Below, piece after piece: positions 1 to 5,849 of a stretch of DNA of 45,162 bases. Position numbers and translations under genes: made by a program. Under the pieces are notes generated by a model that searched no databases, was not told the origin of the DNA, and worked only from the letters and a program-made list of their open reading frames with translations. Origin of the DNA: a virus (Duplodnaviria > Heunggongvirae > Uroviricota > Caudoviricetes); the IMG/VR virus record IMGVR_UViG_2684623059_000002; one strand, given 5' to 3'. Position 1 is the stretch's first letter. The number at the start of each line of letters is the position of its first letter.

Positions 1-58
1 AGCCATATCTCATAACCGCCGCTAACTATATACGGTTAGCGGCAATTAGGGTTGAACA

Positions 59-2530
59 TTAAAAATCAGCCTGACTCGGGATCAGTTTTTGCCAGATAGC
101 TGAAACGTATTTTGCCTGGTAACGAGCGTCATCAAGTGCATTATGGCGCTCACCTTCGAATGGGATAGCAGTTCTGGCATCGAAGTCTATGGCTTTCCCC
201 AGCTCAACGATTGTGCGTATATCGCGATCGTTGTAGTAACGCCACGGGCAGGGGATCCCCTGCCGTTCGTATGAACGGCGCAAAATCGTGTTGTCGAAGT
301 TTGCTCCATTTCCCCAGACCTGAACAAAAAATTCACCGGAGTTTTCGTCGATAAATTCCCGCAATTGTAACAGTGCATCATCTAACGGGATTTCATCGGT
401 CATAATGGCAGATTGCGCTTCGCGTGATTGCTTAAGCCACCATTTAATGGTGTCCCGATCAATGACTCCGCCAGCAGTTTCCAGATCGACAGTCTTACTA
501 AATTCCGGTCCCATATCTCCGGTTTGCGGATCGAAAAATATTGCACCTATTGAGATAATCGGGGCATCAGGATTTTTTCCCATGGTTTCAAGGTCGATCA
601 TCAGATGAATCCCCGCTCTGCTGGTGGATGTGAGATTATGGTGACCGTTCACCTTAATTAAGGGATCTGACGCCTCGCCAGTTTCACTATCGCTGGCATG
701 ATGCTGATTGCCGCCAGAGTTCTCCTTGTGCTGATGCGCAGTGCCTTCCATTTCCTCCGGATCATTTTCCTGAACTTCAGGCTGATTCTCTTCATCGAAT
801 ATTTCCTGGTATGTTGCGTCGCCCATCACCGCACCACAATCAGGGCAGCTACCGCCGCCGGTCTGACCGCAGGCGGTGCAGGCTTTTTCCGGCTCCTGTT
901 GCGCTACTGGTTCAACCTGTTTCGTTTCTGGCTCGTTTTGTTGCGCATTTGGGCTGTTTTGTTCCGTTTTCTGGTCGTTCTGTTCCGATTCTTGCTGGTT
1001 CTGGTTTACAGAGTCGCGGGTTTCAATCCCCTTCACCCATTTCGGATCATTCGGGTCGCTAATCCCTGCAACAAATTCTCCGCGAGAGGCAGCAAGCAAC
1101 TTATCGGCGTCAGGCTGGCTGATATTGGCTGCCTGCATAATTTTGTTTACTTCTTCAGCGGTAACTTTTACCGGCTCTGGTTGTGCGGTCGTGTCAGATG
1201 CACCAGTATTTTGTTGTGAACCTGAGTATGTACCGTTTTTGCGGGCAAAATATTCTTCTTTCGTGATTTCAGTAGCCCCTGCAGTCAGCGCCTTATTCAG
1301 ACCAGAAAGTTTGTTTGCGCGACCATATTTTTCGCCATCCTTGTCGGTGAAGAGGAAGTAGAACGGCCCTTCACGCTCTACAGATGGTTCGACTTCCACT
1401 TTGCATTCGGTTTTTTCGTTGTCCGGAATTGCCGTTTCCACTGCATCAGTTTCTGGTACTGGCGACGAGAGAGTATCAGTTGCGCTCTGATTTGTTCCTT
1501 CATCTTCAAACACGCCCTTTGTAGTCAGGTATTCAGTAATGTATTTGTTCAGTGCCACAGGGGCTTTGTGAATGTCGATCGGACGTTCACGGACAAGGCC
1601 AAAAATAGTCTGGCGGTCGTAGCGAAGGGCATCAGGCTGTTTGCGCATTGATGCCGAGATACGCTTCCAGTCTTCGCGGTCGTTGTCGATAACTTCATTT
1701 TTTGCCCAGCGATGGATGCTGCCGTCAATGTTTCCGGCATCAATGTCACCAGGCCACAGAGCGTAGGCCAGTTCATCATCCAGTGTTTTCCATGTCTGCT
1801 TGTATTCGCGACGAATGGTGGCAGTGGCTGGGGGGGGGTTCGCTACTGAGTTTTCAGTGTTCTGCCGGTTGACTCTGGCGCGGGCAAGATCAACAACAGA
1901 CGTGTATTTCCCGGTTTCTTTGCGTTCGGCTTCGCGACGTTTTTTCCAGGTGCGTAATTCTGTCTGGATCTCAGGCCATTTTGCACCCGGCTTACATTTA
2001 TGTTTAACCCACCCGATGGCGAGCAGCTTAAGCTCTGAATACATGACGTTAACTTCAGGCATTTTCATCAATGCCTCAACGATATGCCCGTCGAATGTTG
2101 CCATGTCCTCCTGCAGTAATTCCTGAGCACTAATCACCATATCAACGGTGATGTTTTCACATGTACCGAACTTAACCAGGACCGCGTTCTGTACTTCAAG
2201 GGACAGCTTGTCAAAATTGACGTTCATCGGATCGGATTCTGGTTCGACCGGAATAAAGGAAGCGGATTCCTCATCCCAGCGGTTTTCCTGCATATATTCG
2301 GTATCCCAGGAGTCGATAGCAGGGCGGGGCATGCCGGGTTTATCCTCGCAGACAAGAAATTTATAAGCGCAGTCCTGAGCAGCCGGATATTGCTCCAGGA
2401 ATTGCCAGGTAAATTTGGCACGGGCGCGGCGTTCGTCACCGGCTTCAATGGCAGTGGCTACAGCAATTGCACCTTCTTCCTTTATTGCCTGTTCGTCCGG
2501 AATGGCGGCGCAAATAAAGACTTTACTCAT
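59..2530 (-). CDS. Prophage exonuclease-family protein (823 aa) with C-terminal DnaQ-like DEDDh 3'-5' exonuclease domain, central Cys cluster and Q/E-rich low-complexity linker
   Basis: C-terminal motifs MIDLETMG ... GNGANFD ... HNALDDARY match the DEDD exonuclease fold; CTACGQTGGGSCPDCG resembles a zinc ribbon; long intact ORF. Confidence 0.8.
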   Translation of the reverse strand: MSKVFICAAIPDEQAIKEEGAIAVATAIEAGDERRARAKFTWQFLEQYPAAQDCAYKFLVCEDKPGMPRPAIDSWDTEYMQENRWDEESASFIPVEPESDPMNVNFDKLSLEVQNAVLVKFGTCENITVDMVISAQELLQEDMATFDGHIVEALMKMPEVNVMYSELKLLAIGWVKHKCKPGAKWPEIQTELRTWKKRREAERKETGKYTSVVDLARARVNRQNTENSVANPPPATATIRREYKQTWKTLDDELAYALWPGDIDAGNIDGSIHRWAKNEVIDNDREDWKRISASMRKQPDALRYDRQTIFGLVRERPIDIHKAPVALNKYITEYLTTKGVFEDEGTNQSATDTLSSPVPETDAVETAIPDNEKTECKVEVEPSVEREGPFYFLFTDKDGEKYGRANKLSGLNKALTAGATEITKEEYFARKNGTYSGSQQNTGASDTTAQPEPVKVTAEEVNKIMQAANISQPDADKLLAASRGEFVAGISDPNDPKWVKGIETRDSVNQNQQESEQNDQKTEQNSPNAQQNEPETKQVEPVAQQEPEKACTACGQTGGGSCPDCGAVMGDATYQEIFDEENQPEVQENDPEEMEGTAHQHKENSGGNQHHASDSETGEASDPLIKVNGHHNLTSTSRAGIHLMIDLETMGKNPDAPIISIGAIFFDPQTGDMGPEFSKTVDLETAGGVIDRDTIKWWLKQSREAQSAIMTDEIPLDDALLQLREFIDENSGEFFVQVWGNGANFDNTILRRSYERQGIPCPWRYYNDRDIRTIVELGKAIDFDARTAIPFEGERHNALDDARYQAKYVSAIWQKLIPSQADF

Positions 2531-2653
2531 TTTGTTTTAACCTCATGACAGATTTAAGGATGAACAAATCCCTGCCATTGCTGGCATATAAGAATCAAAT
2601 CTGATGTATTCATTAAGCTGAATGTCGTATTGTGGCAGTTATTTTATTACTGC

Positions 2654-2875
2654 TCACCATGACTCTGCTTTTACAGGTAAACCATCACGACCAAGGAAGA
2701 CTTTAATCATGGTTTCCTTAATACAGTGTTGTGTGGAAAAATCACGAATATAGAGCCGTTGTTTTTTAATGTTGTTTACCGAAGCAATATATGTTCTTCC
2801 TTTATGAATAACATAATCACCGGGAGTCACGCACTGACGAGGAATTTCATCAGTTCCGAAGTGATGAGCAATCAT
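2654..2875 (-). CDS. Small hypothetical protein immediately downstream of DicF, in the dicB position of the operon; does not match the K-12 DicB sequence as I recall it
   Basis: ORF with GGAG about 6 nt upstream of the second Met (MIAHHF...); synteny with the Qin dicB operon. Confidence 0.5.
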
Positions 2876-3049
2876 AATTATCTCCATTTTTACAAATGAA
2901 CTTTGTTGATGCGGTGCCTGGTGCCTCCAGGTGACGTTAACCAGTTAACAATTAACGCCGGATACAGAGAATCCACCCATAACACTGTTTTTGGTTTTAA
3001 CTGTTCCACGTGCGCTTAGCCGCATTCACCGCATCACAAAATTCACTTT

Positions 3050-3107
3050 AAAAAGGGCGGCAGAGCAGTCACGGAGTAAAACTGATACCGCCAAACGCCA
3101 CCAGAAA
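3050..3107 (-). ncRNA. dicF: DicF small regulatory RNA (ftsZ-targeting sRNA of Qin-like prophages)
   Basis: Minus-strand sequence UUUCUGGUGGCGUUUGGCGGUAUCAGUUUUACUCCGUGACUGCUCUGCCGCCCUUUUU is near-identical to recalled E. coli DicF, including the GC hairpin and U-tract; correct synteny downstream of dicA. Confidence 0.8.
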
Positions 3108-3443
3108 ATTGATAACAGAGGGCGTTGTAGCGGGGTTGTCACTTAAGCGTATGGTCAACCTGACAACCCGGTGTCCTCAACGGGGAAGGAATAACCCCGC
3201 CATACTTACCGCCGCGCCATTTCGCGGAGTGCCACAACCGGAAGCGCACGGTCGAATTAAATTTAACGACACCGTACAGAGAGACCAATTTCGCCGTGTG
3301 CTTTCGCGTTATGCCCTGGCTTTTCAGGGATATATCCTTTCAGTAAACTGTCAGTACCGGATTCTTATCCGTGTCCGGCGCACGACCACACGTGACAGCG
3401 TGTTGGTCTCCATTTTTAACCCAGAACCTCAATGGAGGATAAA

Positions 3444-3653
3444 ATGCCAAACAAAAAAAGAAATCCGCTTATTGAAAAACAGATTGAATGCCTTGTAAAT
3501 CAACTCAGGCAATCAGGGTTATTAAAAACTCATTCAGAGTTGAGGCTCACAGAATCAGCATTCGACGATAAATTAAATAATGTCCTTTATAATGGCATTA
3601 TTGATTTTAATCGTTCTGTTGGTCGCCGCGGCCCTGCTGGTGTTTCCTTATAA
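3444..3653 (+). CDS. Hypothetical 69-aa protein, antisense to the dicB-type operon, AT-rich
   Basis: ORF with strong GGAGG RBS 7 nt upstream of ATG at 3444; stop abuts the convergent 216-aa gene; no family recognised. Confidence 0.4.
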   Translation: MPNKKRNPLIEKQIECLVNQLRQSGLLKTHSELRLTESAFDDKLNNVLYNGIIDFNRSVGRRGPAGVSL

Positions 3654-4304
3654 TTACCAGTCAATCCAGAGCGGACCGTGTTCAGCGTAAATATAACTGT
3701 ACACATCCAGATTATATTTGTGGTCTGTTAAGAACAGGCCGCAAATACATGCCGAAGCTTCCAGGGCAGCGGCTCTGTTACTGAATAACCATGTAGCAAC
3801 ATTCCAGCGTTTTTCTGCATCCCAGTCTTTCTCAAGGCCTGATACCATGAAGAAACCGTTAGTGTTGCCATCAAATAATTCTGTTTCCAGATTTTTAAGC
3901 AATGCCTGATGGACTCTTGCCAGGTATTCCGCCGGAATTTTGCCACGAATTCTGATGAGATTGTCATAAACAAACATGTTCCCCGCATATGGCGATTTTT
4001 CTTTCTTGTTTTTTAAACCAGCATCATGAGCAAACTGATCAATTTCTTCTTCCGTTGGTTTCGTATTGATGTTTTGCGCTGTCGTTTCTGCAATTTTATT
4101 TGCCACACTCTCTGAGTCGTGTTTATTTATAGACGCACAGAAATACAATCCGGTAAACGCATCGCGCACATTACGAGCTATATTATCAGTGTCTTTTTTC
4201 GTTACCGATTCCAATGCAAGTTCGTTCAGACGATGACGAAGTGTATGTGCTGCAATCTCCTGGATTGAAGTAGGTAAATCTTTAAATTCCATCGTCAACC
4301 TCAT
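3654..4304 (-). CDS. Hypothetical 216-aa protein inserted in the repressor-linked operon (moron; function unknown)
   Basis: Intact ORF with start overlapping the upstream gene stop (coupling); AT-rich relative to flanks; no recognisable motifs. Confidence 0.6.
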   Translation of the reverse strand: MRLTMEFKDLPTSIQEIAAHTLRHRLNELALESVTKKDTDNIARNVRDAFTGLYFCASINKHDSESVANKIAETTAQNINTKPTEEEIDQFAHDAGLKNKKEKSPYAGNMFVYDNLIRIRGKIPAEYLARVHQALLKNLETELFDGNTNGFFMVSGLEKDWDAEKRWNVATWLFSNRAAALEASACICGLFLTDHKYNLDVYSYIYAEHGPLWIDW

Positions 4305-4456
4305 CAGTCAGAGTTTCTTGCTAACCAGCGATGCGCGCCAGCTTCGGTTTTAAACGTTTTACTTTTGGTATACGTCATCGCGGTGAACGTGCCGTCCTGG
4401 TTGGGAAACACGTCGTACACCAGAGATTCGTTGTTGCCAAGATCGATAGTATCCAT
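4304..4456 (-). CDS. Small protein (50 aa) downstream of the repressor, YdfA-like position
   Basis: ORF beginning MDTIDLGNNES with GAGG RBS; synteny with Qin ydfA; track ORF 4304..4534 probably over-extended. Confidence 0.45.
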   Translation of the reverse strand: MDTIDLGNNESLVYDVFPNQDGTFTAMTYTKSKTFKTEAGAHRWLARNSD

Positions 4457-4540
4457 GCTGACCTCATTTCCCCTTAACGCCGGGGTAGCGGAACTGTTTG
4501 CTGAGAACACCGTGCGGTGTCTTGATGTAAGCAATATTAG

Positions 4541-4590
4541 CCATGGCTAACAATTTGGTCAAGCATTTTTGTTTGTCATAGCTAACATTC
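4541..4590. promoter_or_regulatory. Repeated operator-like motifs (TGGCTAACAAT / TAGCTAACATT) downstream of the repressor gene
   Basis: ccatggctaacaattt (4541-4556) and tcatagctaacattc (4576-4590) repeat the motif also found in the dicA-dicC intergenic region. Confidence 0.4.
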
Positions 4591-4622
4591 TGGGCGGCCA
4601 AAAAGATAACGCATTGATTGCG

Positions 4623-5030
4623 TTATCTTTTGTTTGTTCGTTGACGGGCTTTTAATAACTCTTCAAAGAGTTTGTTGAAATTTTTTACTCGGGCGCGCAT
4701 CTCGGTGAGCTGAGCATCCTGTTCTGATTCAGGCAATGCATTAAAAAGCTCAAGGAGCTCATGTTCTTTGGGGGATAGAGCAACTGGCTCCTCAATAGGT
4801 GGTGATGGCTGCTTGTCTTCATCGCCAAATAGAATCCATGTTGGCGAGCACTGCAGTACTTTGCTGAGGGCAAAAAGATTCTTTCCTGTAGGTTCGCTAT
4901 CATCCCGTTCCCATTGTGAAACCGATACATGAGAAATTTTCAGGGCTTTAGCAAGAGACCTTTGGGTGTATTTGAGGTTTTTTCGGCGATATCTAATGCG
5001 TTCGCCAATGGTTAGATTTTTTGTATCCAT
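4623..5030 (-). CDS. dicA: DicA-like HTH-XRE prophage repressor (135 aa)
   Basis: Near-identical to recalled E. coli DicA (…GERIRYRRKNLK.TQRSLAKALKISHVSVSQWER…); divergent from the Cro-like gene. Confidence 0.9.
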   Translation of the reverse strand: MDTKNLTIGERIRYRRKNLKYTQRSLAKALKISHVSVSQWERDDSEPTGKNLFALSKVLQCSPTWILFGDEDKQPSPPIEEPVALSPKEHELLELFNALPESEQDAQLTEMRARVKNFNKLFEELLKARQRTNKR

Positions 5031-5101
5031 AGTTAGCTAATGCTAAATCTTATTGACTATGTTTTTGTTAACATCTATTTTGTTAGTTATGGCTAACAAT
5101 T
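5028..5101. promoter_or_regulatory. Immunity-region operator/promoter: sigma70-like promoter for dicC (-35 TTGACT 5052-5057, 17-bp spacer, -10 TATTTT 5075-5080) flanked by TAGCTAA/TGGCTAACAAT operator-like repeats
   Basis: Consensus-like hexamers with 17-bp spacing upstream of dicC; inverted and direct copies of the GCTAAC motif. Confidence 0.5.
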
Positions 5102-5113
5102 AAGGTGCTTTAA

Positions 5114-5344
5114 ATGCTTAAAACTGACGCACTTTTGTATTTCGGTTCAAAAACAAAACTTGCACAAGCTGCTGGTATTCGTTTGGCTTCGCTTTATAGC
5201 TGGAAAGGGGAGCTAGTACCTGAAGGTCGCGCGATGCGCCTGCAAGATGCATCCGGCGGGGAACTTCAGTACGACCCCAAAGTTTATGACGAATATCGTA
5301 AGGCAAAGCGGGCGGGGCGGTTGAACAATGAAAATCACCCCTGA
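5114..5344 (+). CDS. dicC: DicC-like Cro-type repressor (76 aa)
   Basis: Near-identical to recalled DicC (MLKTDALLYFGSKTKLAQAAGIRLASLYSWKG...). Confidence 0.9.
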   Translation: MLKTDALLYFGSKTKLAQAAGIRLASLYSWKGELVPEGRAMRLQDASGGELQYDPKVYDEYRKAKRAGRLNNENHP

Positions 5345-5849
5345 ACAGGTTTGTGAGGCTCTGGATGCCTGGGTATGCCGACCAGGAATGACACAGGAGC
5401 AGGCGACGATATTAATCACGGAAGCATTCTGGGCTCTGAAAGAACGCCCGAACATCGATGTTCAACGCGTCACGTTTAATGATGGCGAGGTTGATCAACG
5501 GGCGTTGGGCGTTAACCGGGTGAAGATATTCGAACGCTGGAAAGCTATCGACACCAGGGATAAGCGGGAAAAATTCACGGCGCTGATTCCGGCAATTATG
5601 GAGGCTATCCGGATCAGCGATTTCAGGTTGTATTGTGAAATTACTGACGGAAAAAGCATTACGTACATGATCGCCGGGTTAAACAAAGAATATGGCGATG
5701 TGGTGGAGTCCGGTCTGCTTTTGGCAGATCCCGCTGTTGTGGAGCGTGAGACTGACGAGCTTATAGAAAAAGCTATTGCTTTCAAGCATGCGTATCGTCA
5801 GCAATATCAACAAAAAGCCGGATGGAATTATGAGTCTTCTTTTTGCTGA
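5328..5849 (+). CDS. Early-region hypothetical protein (173 aa); YdaT-like position, possible regulator
   Basis: ORF translationally coupled to dicC; position equals ydaT/cII slot of Rac/Qin-type prophages; family assignment not verified. Confidence 0.5.
   Translation: MKITPEQVCEALDAWVCRPGMTQEQATILITEAFWALKERPNIDVQRVTFNDGEVDQRALGVNRVKIFERWKAIDTRDKREKFTALIPAIMEAIRISDFRLYCEITDGKSITYMIAGLNKEYGDVVESGLLLADPAVVERETDELIEKAIAFKHAYRQQYQQKAGWNYESSFC

What the first reader, a model, noticed from the sequence alone, without database searches (positions are those of the whole stretch)
4541..5101. Operator-like GCTAAC repeats flank the DicA-like repressor gene on both sides
Copies of TGGCTAACAAT/TAGCTAACATT occur in the dicA-dicC intergenic region (5028-5101) and again downstream of dicA (4541-4590). 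This suggests repressor binding at both ends of dicA, possibly looping or control of the downstream operon.
Basis: seen in the sequence. Interest (0 to 1): 0.4.

Follow-up and report, generated by a model that had tools for sequence, protein, structure and literature searches.

The report
Prophage repressor operators flanking dicA
The repeated GCTAAC motifs are the left and right operators of a Qin/P22-type prophage immunity switch, where the DicA repressor (and DicC/Cro) shut off the two early promoters pointing away from dicA; this arrangement is real but already described for E. coli K-12 and phage P22.

Summary
Each "TGGCTAACAAT"-type repeat is one half of a 20-bp pseudo-palindrome, TTGTTAGyyATrrCTAACAA. 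Strong copies lie at 4534-4553 and 4569-4588, downstream of dicA, and at 5080-5099 in the dicA-dicC spacer. A weak copy lies at 5030-5049.

With the experimentally validated K-12 operator Oc as an independent probe, these three sites rank 1-3 in the 45-kb window. No simulated sequence reached their scores.

The downstream pair brackets and overlaps a leftward sigma-70 promoter (TTGACC-17-TAATAT). This is the dicBp/PL equivalent, driving ydfA, DicF and the exonuclease gene. The upstream strong site overlaps the -10/+1 of the dicC promoter (PR equivalent).

In 13 heteroimmune DicA-family loci the palindrome sequence changes with the repressor's helix-turn-helix. It is still shared between both flanks, at the same positions. 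The layout matches the annotated OL/OR of phage P22 in detail.

The K-12 literature already describes these operators: Béjar 1988, as cited in the 2023 paper (not read here); Yun 2012; Ragunathan 2023; and a 2024 DicC ChIP-seq preprint reporting binding "on either side of dicA".

Control of the downstream operon is therefore supported. OL-OR looping remains untested, and operator distances show no conserved helical phase.

Verdict: ordinary, already known.

The parts
4534..4553 (.). Promoter-proximal left operator (OL1-like): ATATTAGCCA|TGGCTAACAA, with a perfect 14-bp core TTAGCCATGGCTAA. It overlaps the spacer and -10 of the leftward promoter.
   Evidence: 18/20 to consensus; 15/20 to K-12 Oc, rank 3 in window. 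Conserved in K-12 Qin. Same position as P22 OL1.
4569..4588 (.). Promoter-distal left operator (OL2-like): TTGTTTGTCA|TAGCTAACAT. It lies 6 bp upstream of the -35 and 35 bp centre-to-centre from the proximal site. One half is degenerate (GTTTG instead of GTTAG).
   Evidence: 16/20; 17/20, rank 2. The 35-36 bp spacing is conserved across immunity groups and equals P22 OL1-OL2 (my count).
4534..4562 (-). Leftward early promoter, the equivalent of K-12 dicBp and of lambda/P22 PL: -35 TTGACC (4562-4557), 17-bp spacer, -10 TAATAT (4539-4534). The inferred transcription start is near 4527.
   Evidence: Consensus scan. The -35 is identical and the -10 is TAATCT in K-12. P22 PL is TTGACC-17-TAAATT in the same register. 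The transcription start is an inference, not mapped.
4601..4631 (.). 13-bp perfect hairpin that overlaps the dicA stop codon and is followed by T-runs on both strands. It is probably the dicA terminator and separates dicA from the leftward promoter.
   Evidence: (I4). Retained with substitutions in K-12.
4623..5030 (-). dicA repressor gene (135 aa): an N-terminal HTH_3 domain plus a short conserved C-terminal region. It has no S24 peptidase domain.
   Evidence: 93% identity to K-12 DicA; Pfam; P22 C2 N-terminal domain, E = 4e-20.
5030..5049 (.). Weak operator (K-12 Oa / P22 OR3 position): TAGTTAGCTA|ATGCTAAATC. It abuts the dicA start codon and sits 3 bp upstream of the dicC -35.
   Evidence: 13/20, which is chance level on score alone. 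Identical in K-12. Positional and sequence match to P22 OR3. In K-12, DicA did not bind Oa alone in vivo (PMC3441716).
5056..5075 (.). Position of the middle operator (K-12 Om / P22 OR2). Only a TGTTAACA remnant is present, so this is not a recognisable full site.
   Evidence: Read from the sequence and placed by analogy with P22 OR2. K-12 Om was not bound by DicA.
5053..5081 (+). Rightward early promoter dicCp (PR equivalent): -35 TTGACT, 17-bp spacer, -10 TATTTT.
   Evidence: The orthologous K-12 promoter was mapped by 5'RACE (PMC3441716).
5080..5099 (.). Main right operator (K-12 Oc / P22 OR1 position): TTGTTAGTTA|TGGCTAACAA. It overlaps the end of the -10 and the +1 of dicCp.
   Evidence: 18/20; 19/20 to validated K-12 Oc, rank 1. 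K-12 Oc binds DicA in vivo, and a single A-to-C change in CTAAC abolishes binding.
5114..5344 (+). dicC, the Cro-like second repressor (76 aa).
   Evidence: Pfam P22_Cro; 96% identity to K-12 DicC.
4304..4456 (-). ydfA (DUF1391), the first gene of the leftward operon controlled by the left operators.
   Evidence: 92% identity to K-12 YdfA.
3055..3106 (-). DicF small RNA gene, further down the same leftward operon.
   Evidence: Rfam RF00039, 76.4 bits against a gathering score of 48.
10377..10637 (+). Homologue of Rem, the antirepressor that relieves DicA repression of dicBp in K-12. It is the likely route of induction, because DicA has no RecA-cleavage module.
   Evidence: 71% identity over 83 aa. 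Function taken from PMC10448788.

Best explanation
The repeats are the left (OL) and right (OR) operators of a Qin/P22-type lambdoid immunity region. A DicA dimer recognises a 20-bp pseudo-palindrome TTGTTAGyyATrrCTAACAA through its P22-C2-like helix-turn-helix. On the right, the strong site at 5080-5099 covers the -10/+1 of the dicC promoter, so it blocks the early-right operon (dicC, ydaT, replication genes). In K-12 this site also stimulates dicA's own transcription. On the left, just past the dicA terminator, the site at 4534-4553 lies in the spacer and -10 of a leftward promoter, and a second site at 4569-4588 sits just upstream of its -35. Occupancy there blocks the early-left operon (ydfA, a 216-aa ORF, DicF RNA, exonuclease). 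DicC (Cro) uses the same sites in the opposite state of the switch. Because DicA lacks a self-cleavage domain, release is expected through the Rem-like antirepressor encoded at 10377-10637. Shown here: the sites, their uniqueness in the window, their overlap with promoter-like hexamers, their co-variation with repressor type, and their correspondence to P22 OL/OR. Taken from K-12 experiments on the 93%-identical orthologue: binding and repression. Inferred: the transcription start, occupancy of the distal left site, and the role of Rem in this prophage.
For: The sites are unique in 45 kb, both by a consensus scan and by an independent probe with the validated K-12 Oc. A leftward promoter TTGACC-17-TAATAT overlaps the proximal left site, and dicCp overlaps the right site. 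A terminator hairpin lies between dicA and the left promoter. The sites and promoter hexamers are conserved in K-12 Qin, while the surrounding non-coding bases differ. Among four DicA-type alleles, Oc varies only at central positions 8, 12 and 13; the outer TTGTTAG/CTAACAA is invariant. Heteroimmune loci carry different palindromes (for example TTGAGTTTTCTCAA, CTTAGnnnnnnCTAAG), again on both flanks and in the same register to the -35. In 13 non-redundant loci, own-upstream versus own-downstream similarity is 14.0 of 16, against 12.2 cross-locus; 0 of 20,000 permutations reached this. The DicA N-terminal domain is homologous to P22 C2 (E = 4e-20), and DicC matches Pfam P22_Cro. The P22 record annotates OL1-3 directly downstream and OR1-3 directly upstream of c2, with the same -35, the same operator-in-spacer arrangement and the same 35-bp OL1-OL2 spacing. 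Literature: Oc binds DicA in vivo (PMC3441716). dicBp is called similar to lambda PL and is derepressed 22-fold by deleting dicA, and operators on both sides of dicA were noted from sequence (PMC10448788). DicC ChIP-seq infers sites on either side of dicA, with motif TT(A/C/T)G...C(G/A/T)AA (PMC11430063).
Against: There are no binding data for this allele. In K-12 only Oc has been shown to bind DicA; Om and Oa did not bind on their own. The Reg-Seq authors list the DicA site at dicB as low-evidence, with "binding location unknown" (PMC7567609). The distal left site has a degenerate half at the position symmetrical to the A whose mutation kills Oc, so it may be weak. Only two sites are recognisable on the left, and one strong plus one weak on the right, not three per side as in P22. 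The promoter and terminator calls are consensus matches only; the scan found 3 promoter-like sites against 1.6 expected.
Confidence: 0.9

Rival explanations
1. The two operator clusters also act together. DicA bound at the left and right operators interacts through its conserved C-terminal region, looping out the roughly 0.55-kb segment that carries dicA. As in lambda OL-OR looping, this would tighten repression and tune dicA autoregulation.
For: Operator clusters lie on both sides of dicA, 546 bp apart centre to centre. That is 52.0 turns at 10.5 bp per turn, and the same distance recurs in four different immunity groups. The C-terminal half of DicA is far better conserved than the HTH across heteroimmune alleles, which fits a shared protein-protein function.
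Against: Other relatives have distances of 537, 553, 572 and 585-587 bp, so helical phase is not conserved. The recurring 546 bp may simply reflect the shared 408-bp gene and common ancestry. DicA lacks the lambda-CI-type C-terminal domain (Pfam finds HTH families only). No paper read here reports looping or higher-order DicA oligomers. Having OL and OR on both flanks is fully explained by two promoters needing repression.
Confidence: 0.15
2. The left-hand repeats are bound only by DicC (Cro) and not by DicA, so DicA control of the leftward operon is indirect.
For: Direct in vivo occupancy on either side of dicA has been reported for DicC by ChIP-seq. DicA binding has been demonstrated only for Oc. 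Reg-Seq lists the DicA site at dicB as unknown.
Against: [quoted passage not shown] The left sites match the DicA-validated Oc at 15-17 of 20 positions, including an intact CTAAC half. In lambdoid switches the repressor and Cro share operators (established knowledge of lambda and P22).
Confidence: 0.05
3. The similarity between the two flanks is incidental: AT-rich promoter DNA, or scars of recombination at immunity-module boundaries, with no protein-binding role.
For: Both regions are AT-rich promoter regions. A mosaic boundary lies just beyond the proximal left site. The weak site at 5030-5049 scores at chance level.
Against: The three strong sites exceed every simulated sequence. They are palindromic. 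The flank-to-flank similarity changes in step with the repressor HTH in heteroimmune loci, which scars or base composition would not produce. The outer half-site bases are invariant while the central bases vary.
Confidence: 0.02

Closest known systems
E. coli K-12 Qin cryptic prophage dicA-dicC-dicBp locus (Béjar et al. 1986 and 1988; Yun et al. 2012; Ragunathan et al. 2023)
   Same: The genes are orthologous: DicA 93%, DicC 96% and YdfA 92% identity, plus a DicF RNA. The operator positions are the same. Oc is identical at 19 of 20 bases. The left promoter has the same TTGACC -35 and the same two flanking palindromes. There is the same terminator hairpin after dicA, and a Rem homologue is present.
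   Different: This copy sits in what looks like a near-complete prophage, with replication, lysis, head and tail-sized ORFs and four tRNAs. It has no DicB homologue. It carries a 216-aa ORF where K-12 has ydfB/ydfC. The central operator bases and the -10 differ slightly (TAATAT versus TAATCT). The best E. coli match over the immunity region is 97.4%.
Salmonella phage P22 immC region (c2 repressor, cro, OL1-3/PL, OR1-3/PR/PRM)
   Same: The repressor HTH domain is homologous (E = 4e-20) and DicC belongs to the P22_Cro family. Operators lie directly downstream and upstream of the repressor gene. PL is TTGACC-17-TAAnnT with the first left operator in the spacer/-10 and the second 35 bp away, upstream of the -35. 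OR3 abuts the repressor start codon. PR has a TTGACT -35.
   Different: The half-site differs: TTAGY here against TTAAG in P22. Only two left sites and effectively one or two right sites are recognisable here, against three per side in P22. DicA is 135 aa with no RecA-sensitive S24 domain, while C2 is 216 aa. A terminator replaces the OL3 position. No N/gp24 antiterminator gene follows the left promoter.
Phage lambda cI / OL-OR switch with long-range looping
   Same: A repressor gene is bracketed by operator clusters that control divergent early promoters, and a bistable switch with Cro is present (for the analogy drawn in the literature).
   Different: The operator sequence is unrelated and the separation is smaller (0.55 kb against about 2.4 kb, the latter from my own knowledge). 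There is no CI-type oligomerisation domain and no evidence of looping.
Gifsy-type prophage repressors controlled by antirepressors
   Same: A short repressor without an autocleavage site, inactivated by a small antirepressor (Rem in Qin). Ragunathan et al. make this comparison.
   Different: Homology to the Gifsy repressors was not tested here. This is a functional analogy only.

Membership tests
Lambdoid (P22-type) immunity region with OL and OR | Divergently transcribed repressor and cro-like genes separated by a short operator/promoter spacer | tested here: met
   dicA is at 4623-5030 (-) and dicC at 5114-5344 (+), with an 83-bp spacer. Pfam gives HTH_3/Phage_CI_repr for DicA and P22_Cro for DicC.
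Lambdoid (P22-type) immunity region with OL and OR | Repressor DNA-binding domain homologous to a characterised lambdoid repressor | tested here: met
   P22 C2 N-terminal domain structures 1adr, 2r1j and 3jxb match at E = 4e-20 to 9e-20 over residues 7-71.
Lambdoid (P22-type) immunity region with OL and OR | The same palindromic operator occurs on both flanks of the repressor gene and overlaps outward-facing sigma-70 promoters | tested here: met
   Sites at 4534-4553, 4569-4588 and 5080-5099 are unique in the window. They overlap TTGACC-17-TAATAT (-) and TTGACT-17-TATTTT (+).
Lambdoid (P22-type) immunity region with OL and OR | Operator sequence co-varies with repressor specificity in heteroimmune relatives | tested here: met
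   Thirteen non-redundant loci give own-flank similarity of 14.0 against 12.2 cross-locus, with 0 of 20,000 permutations reaching this. The sequences are shown.
Lambdoid (P22-type) immunity region with OL and OR | Three operators in each cluster | tested here: not met
   There are two recognisable sites on the left. On the right there is one strong site, one weak site (13/20) and only a remnant at the middle position. K-12 Om and Oa were not bound by DicA alone.
Lambdoid (P22-type) immunity region with OL and OR | RecA-stimulated autocleavage module (S24 peptidase domain, Ala-Gly site) in the repressor | tested here: not met
   No Peptidase_S24 hit; only HTH families were found. The literature states the same for K-12 DicA. 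The switch therefore works like lambda/P22 at the DNA level but is induced differently, by an antirepressor.
Lambdoid (P22-type) immunity region with OL and OR | Physical binding of the repressor to the operators | not testable with these tools
   Known only for the K-12 orthologue: DicA at Oc in vivo, and DicC ChIP-seq on either side of dicA.
Qin dicA-dicC-dicB(F) locus | Orthologous DicA, DicC and YdfA, and the Oc operator | tested here: met
   93%, 96% and 92% identity respectively; Oc matches at 19 of 20 bases.
Qin dicA-dicC-dicB(F) locus | Leftward operon carries dicF and dicB | tested here: inconclusive
   DicF RNA is present at 3055-3106. There is no tblastn match to K-12 DicB, YdfB, YdfC or YdfD.
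Lambda-type OL-OR looping | Cooperative long-range interaction of repressor oligomers bound at OL and OR | not testable with these tools
   The only proxy available is that operator distances in relatives (537-587 bp) are not kept in helical phase. That neither proves nor excludes looping at this distance.

The most novel reading that the evidence does not exclude
DicA, despite lacking a lambda-CI-type C-terminal domain, uses its highly conserved C-terminal helical region to bridge the left and right operators. This would form a compact loop of about 546 bp that encloses its own gene. Repression of both early promoters and dicA autoregulation would then be coupled, giving a minimal version of the lambda OL-OR loop.
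Probability: 0.12. Interest if true: 0.4.

Novelty: already known. Interest (0 to 1): 0.1.

Why it matters
It matters little as a discovery. It confirms that this prophage carries an intact DicA/DicC immunity switch with both operator clusters, the same specificity as Qin (identical recognition helix) and a Rem-type antirepressor. The prophage should therefore be homoimmune with Qin-type elements. Its early-left operon, including the DicF cell-division and virulence-modulating sRNA, should be silent until DicA is displaced. Two additions may be useful. The comparative data give sequence-level support for the exact DicA/DicC site positions at dicBp, which one paper (Reg-Seq, PMC7567609) lists as "binding location unknown". 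They also show that the P22-like OL1-OL2 geometry (35-36 bp) is conserved across many immunity specificities.

Tried and rejected
1. The bare hexamer GCTAAC as the unit. It is not enriched window-wide; the real unit is a 20-bp palindrome.
2. The other GCTAAC copies.
   - Those at 21-26 and 35-40 form an everted hairpin CCGCTAAC-N-GTTAGCGG next to the exonuclease gene end, not an operator.
   - Those at 4320, 20426 and 38077 have no palindromic partner.
3. A third left operator. None scores 13/20 or better between 4460 and 4620.
4. Helical-phase conservation as a test for looping. Distances are 546 bp in several groups but 537, 553, 572 and 585-587 bp in others, so the test is inconclusive. The automatic site picker in that call mis-assigned sites in L002, L013, L017/L019, L021 and L022; I ignored those rows.
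5. The conserved leader of the leftward transcript as a known RNA element. I found:
   - no Rfam match, even at E = 10;
   - no similarity to the HK022 put regions and no second copy in the window;
   - an unremarkable folding energy (z = -0.27);
   - only one 4-bp hairpin supported in a 7-sequence alignment.
6. Reading Béjar et al. 1986 (PMC311701) for the original operator assignments. The paper is not held. Béjar 1988 was likewise not read; it is cited only through PMC10448788.
7. My first Python scan timed out and was rerun in vectorised form.

Full report
**Setting**

The window carries a lambdoid prophage whose early region is the Qin/DicA type.
- dicA (135 aa) lies at 4623-5030 on the minus strand.
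- dicC (76 aa) is divergent, at 5114-5344.
- To the right of dicC come a YdaT-family gene, a replication-initiator-sized ORF and a DnaC/IstB-like loader.
- On the other side of dicA, on the minus strand, lie ydfA (4304-4456), a 216-aa ORF, the DicF small RNA (3055-3106) and an 823-aa exonuclease.

DicA is 93% identical to K-12 DicA, with an identical helix 2-helix 3 segment. DicC is 96% and YdfA 92% identical to their K-12 counterparts. The best E. coli match over 4300-5350 is 97.4%.

**Checking the observation**

Each repeat is half of a 20-bp pseudo-palindrome:

| Coordinates | Sequence | Consensus scan | K-12 Oc probe |
|---|---|---|---|
| 4534-4553 | ATATTAGCCA\|TGGCTAACAA | 18/20 | 15/20 |
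| 4569-4588 | TTGTTTGTCA\|TAGCTAACAT | 16/20 | 17/20 |
| 5080-5099 | TTGTTAGTTA\|TGGCTAACAA | 18/20 | 19/20 |
| 5030-5049 | TAGTTAGCTA\|ATGCTAAATC | 13/20 | not in top 12 |

In the consensus scan the next best site in 45 kb scores 14, and 100 first-order Markov simulations never exceeded 15. That consensus came from the sites themselves. I therefore repeated the scan with TTGTTAGTCATAACTAACAA, the K-12 operator Oc shown to bind DicA in vivo (PMC3441716). The same three sites rank first, second and third of about 45,000 positions, and the next best scores 14.

**Anatomy**

Reading along the minus strand from the end of dicA, the elements are:
- A perfect 13-bp hairpin (4601-4631) overlaps the dicA stop codon and is followed by T-runs. 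It is the likely dicA terminator.
- The distal palindrome follows (4588-4569).
- Six bases later comes a -35 TTGACC (4562-4557), then a 17-bp spacer and a -10 TAATAT (4539-4534).
- The proximal palindrome (4553-4534) fills the spacer and the -10.
- ydfA starts about 70 nt downstream.

On the other flank, the dicC promoter is TTGACT (5053-5058), 17 bp, TATTTT (5076-5081). The strong palindrome at 5080-5099 covers the end of the -10 and the start site. The weak palindrome at 5030-5049 abuts the dicA ATG, 3 bp upstream of the dicC -35. Both outward-facing early promoters therefore have a palindrome at the -10 and another just upstream of the -35.

**Comparative evidence**

The K-12 Qin alignment keeps all four sites, both -35 hexamers and the hairpin, while the non-coding bases around them diverge. 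Among four DicA-type alleles, Oc changes only at central positions 8, 12 and 13. The outer TTGTTAG/CTAACAA is invariant. This is what is expected for contacted versus non-contacted operator bases.

More telling are prophages that share the flanking ydfA and ydaT sequences but carry a different repressor/cro pair. One allele has TTGAGTTTTCTCAA-type palindromes. Another has CTTAG-N6-CTAAG-type palindromes. In each case these occur on both flanks of the repressor gene, in the same register to the TTGACC -35.

A genome-collection scan added 20 loci from Citrobacter, Escherichia albertii, E. ruysiae, E. whittamii, Symbiopectobacterium, Rahnella, Buttiauxella and others. For 13 non-redundant loci I compared the 85 bp upstream of each repressor with the 132 bp downstream.
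- Within a locus, the best shared 16-mer averages 14.0 matches; across loci it averages 12.2.
- The own-locus comparison is the best or tied-best of its row in 11 of 13 loci.
- None of 20,000 permutations reached the observed sum.
- The high off-diagonal values are between related specificities.

The flank-to-flank repeat therefore tracks the repressor's DNA-binding specificity. That is the signature of operators, not of composition or recombination scars. The spacing of the two left sites is 35-36 bp in essentially all groups where they could be assigned.

**Comparison with known systems**

The DicA N-terminal domain matches the solved P22 C2 repressor DNA-binding domain at E = 4e-20, and DicC belongs to Pfam P22_Cro. 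The P22 GenBank record annotates OL1-OL3 directly downstream of c2 and OR1-OR3 directly upstream. Reading those sequences shows the correspondence:
- P22 PL is TTGACC, 17 bp, TAAATT, with OL1 (TTAAG-N4-CTTAA core) in the spacer/-10.
- OL2 lies 35 bp away, upstream of the -35.
- OR3 abuts the c2 ATG.
- PR has a TTGACT -35, and OR1 lies at the -10/+1.

The window matches point for point, with TTAGY-N4-RCTAA in place of TTAAG-N4-CTTAA. So 5080-5099 corresponds to OR1 (K-12 Oc), 5030-5049 to OR3 (Oa), 4534-4553 to OL1 and 4569-4588 to OL2. The OR2 (Om) position keeps only a TGTTAACA remnant. The OL3 position is occupied by the terminator.

**What the literature already says about K-12**
- Ragunathan et al. 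[quoted passage not shown] They call dicBp similar to PL and report that deleting dicA derepresses a dicBp-lacZ fusion 22-fold. [quoted passage not shown] They credit the operator assignment to Béjar et al. 1988 (PMC10448788).
- Yun et al. 2012 showed in vivo that DicA binds Oc, that a single A-to-C change in CTAAC abolishes binding, and that Om and Oa alone are not bound.
- A 2024 preprint reports DicC ChIP-seq with its strongest signal at this locus. [quoted passage not shown]
- The Reg-Seq paper lists the DicA site at dicB as low-evidence with unknown location (PMC7567609). So direct DicA footprinting on the left side appears to be lacking.

**Mechanism**

The best-supported reading is the classical one, at a confidence of about 0.9. 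DicA dimers occupy the right operator to shut dicCp (and, per K-12, to activate dicA). They occupy the left operator(s) to shut the dicBp-like promoter. DicC uses the same sites when the switch flips.

DicA has no S24 autocleavage domain. A Rem homologue (71% identity) lies at 10377-10637. Induction is therefore expected by antirepression rather than by RecA-mediated cleavage.

The sequence features, their uniqueness, their co-variation and the P22 correspondence are shown here. Binding and repression are taken from experiments on the orthologue. The start site, the contribution of the distal left site (one half is degenerate) and the role of Rem in this prophage are inferences.

**The looping idea**

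The centre-to-centre distance from the proximal left site to the strong right site is 546 bp, or 52.0 turns at 10.5 bp per turn. This value recurs in four immunity groups. Other groups have 537, 553, 572 and 585-587 bp, so phase is not conserved, and the recurring value may simply reflect a shared 408-bp gene. The C-terminal half of DicA is much better conserved than its HTH, which would suit a protein-protein interface, but nothing more can be said from sequence. Looping is neither supported nor excluded. I give it about 0.12-0.15.

**Verdict**

This is, however, the textbook OL/OR arrangement of a lambdoid immunity region. It has been described for the orthologous K-12 locus since 1988 and is annotated in P22. 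Novelty: already known. Interest: low.

Noticed in passing
window 4457-4527 (-): The roughly 70-nt leader between the leftward promoter and ydfA is conserved even where the immunity module is swapped. It contains CATCAAG, a hairpin ACACCG-CA-CGGTGT, an invariant GTTC(C/T)G, and a second hairpin CCCC-GGCGTTAA-GGGG just before the ribosome-binding site. In distant relatives the second hairpin becomes GCCG-GAAAGA-CGGC, a boxB-like purine loop. There is no Rfam match, no similarity to HK022 put and no second copy in the window. Only the second hairpin has some compensatory support (2 of 4 pairs). Its function is unknown.
   Followed up: partly
window about 4527-4533 (left) and about 5330 (right); loci L002-L004: The immunity module (left operators, dicA, right operators, dicC) is exchanged as a cassette. 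Similarity to heteroimmune E. coli prophages stops immediately after the proximal left operator/-10 and resumes at the start of the ydaT-like gene.
   Followed up: partly
window 10377-10637 (+): Homologue (71% identity) of Rem, the Qin antirepressor of DicA.
   Followed up: no
window 2530-3654 (-): The DicF RNA gene is present (3055-3106), but there is no DicB, YdfB, YdfC or YdfD homologue. Instead there are a 216-aa ORF (3654-4304) and a 77-aa ORF (2654-2887), neither with a Pfam match.
   Followed up: partly
window 59-2530 (-): An 823-aa protein whose C-terminal 170 residues match the Rv2179c-like 3'-5' exoribonuclease domain (E = 7.6e-67). The long, acidic, Q/E-rich N-terminal part has no family match. 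The equivalent gene in E. coli GE3 is annotated 'exonuclease'.
   Followed up: no
window 19-42: A hairpin CCGCTAAC-TATATAC-GGTTAGCGG just beyond the exonuclease gene end accounts for two of the nine GCTAAC hexamers. The halves are in everted order, so it is not operator-like. It is possibly a terminator.
   Followed up: partly
window 9744-9917 (+) and 13305-13614 (+): A hok/sok-type antitoxin RNA (Rfam sok, 99.9 bits) and a cluster of four tRNA genes (Met-CAT, Lys-TTT, Thr-TGT, Gly-TCC).
   Followed up: no
loci L006, L015, L016: Contigs assigned to MAGs of Collinsella, a Bacillota bacterium and Veillonella parvula carry DicA-type loci that are 57-94% identical to the query, with enterobacterial-type ydfA leaders. 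This most likely reflects binning contamination by Enterobacteriaceae prophage DNA.
   Followed up: no
loci L002, L008, L014, L021 (upstream of the repressor start codon): In several heteroimmune alleles the operator that abuts the repressor ATG reads ATTAAGATATCTAAAT. From memory, this is almost the P22 operator consensus, although their other operators are of a different type.
   Followed up: no
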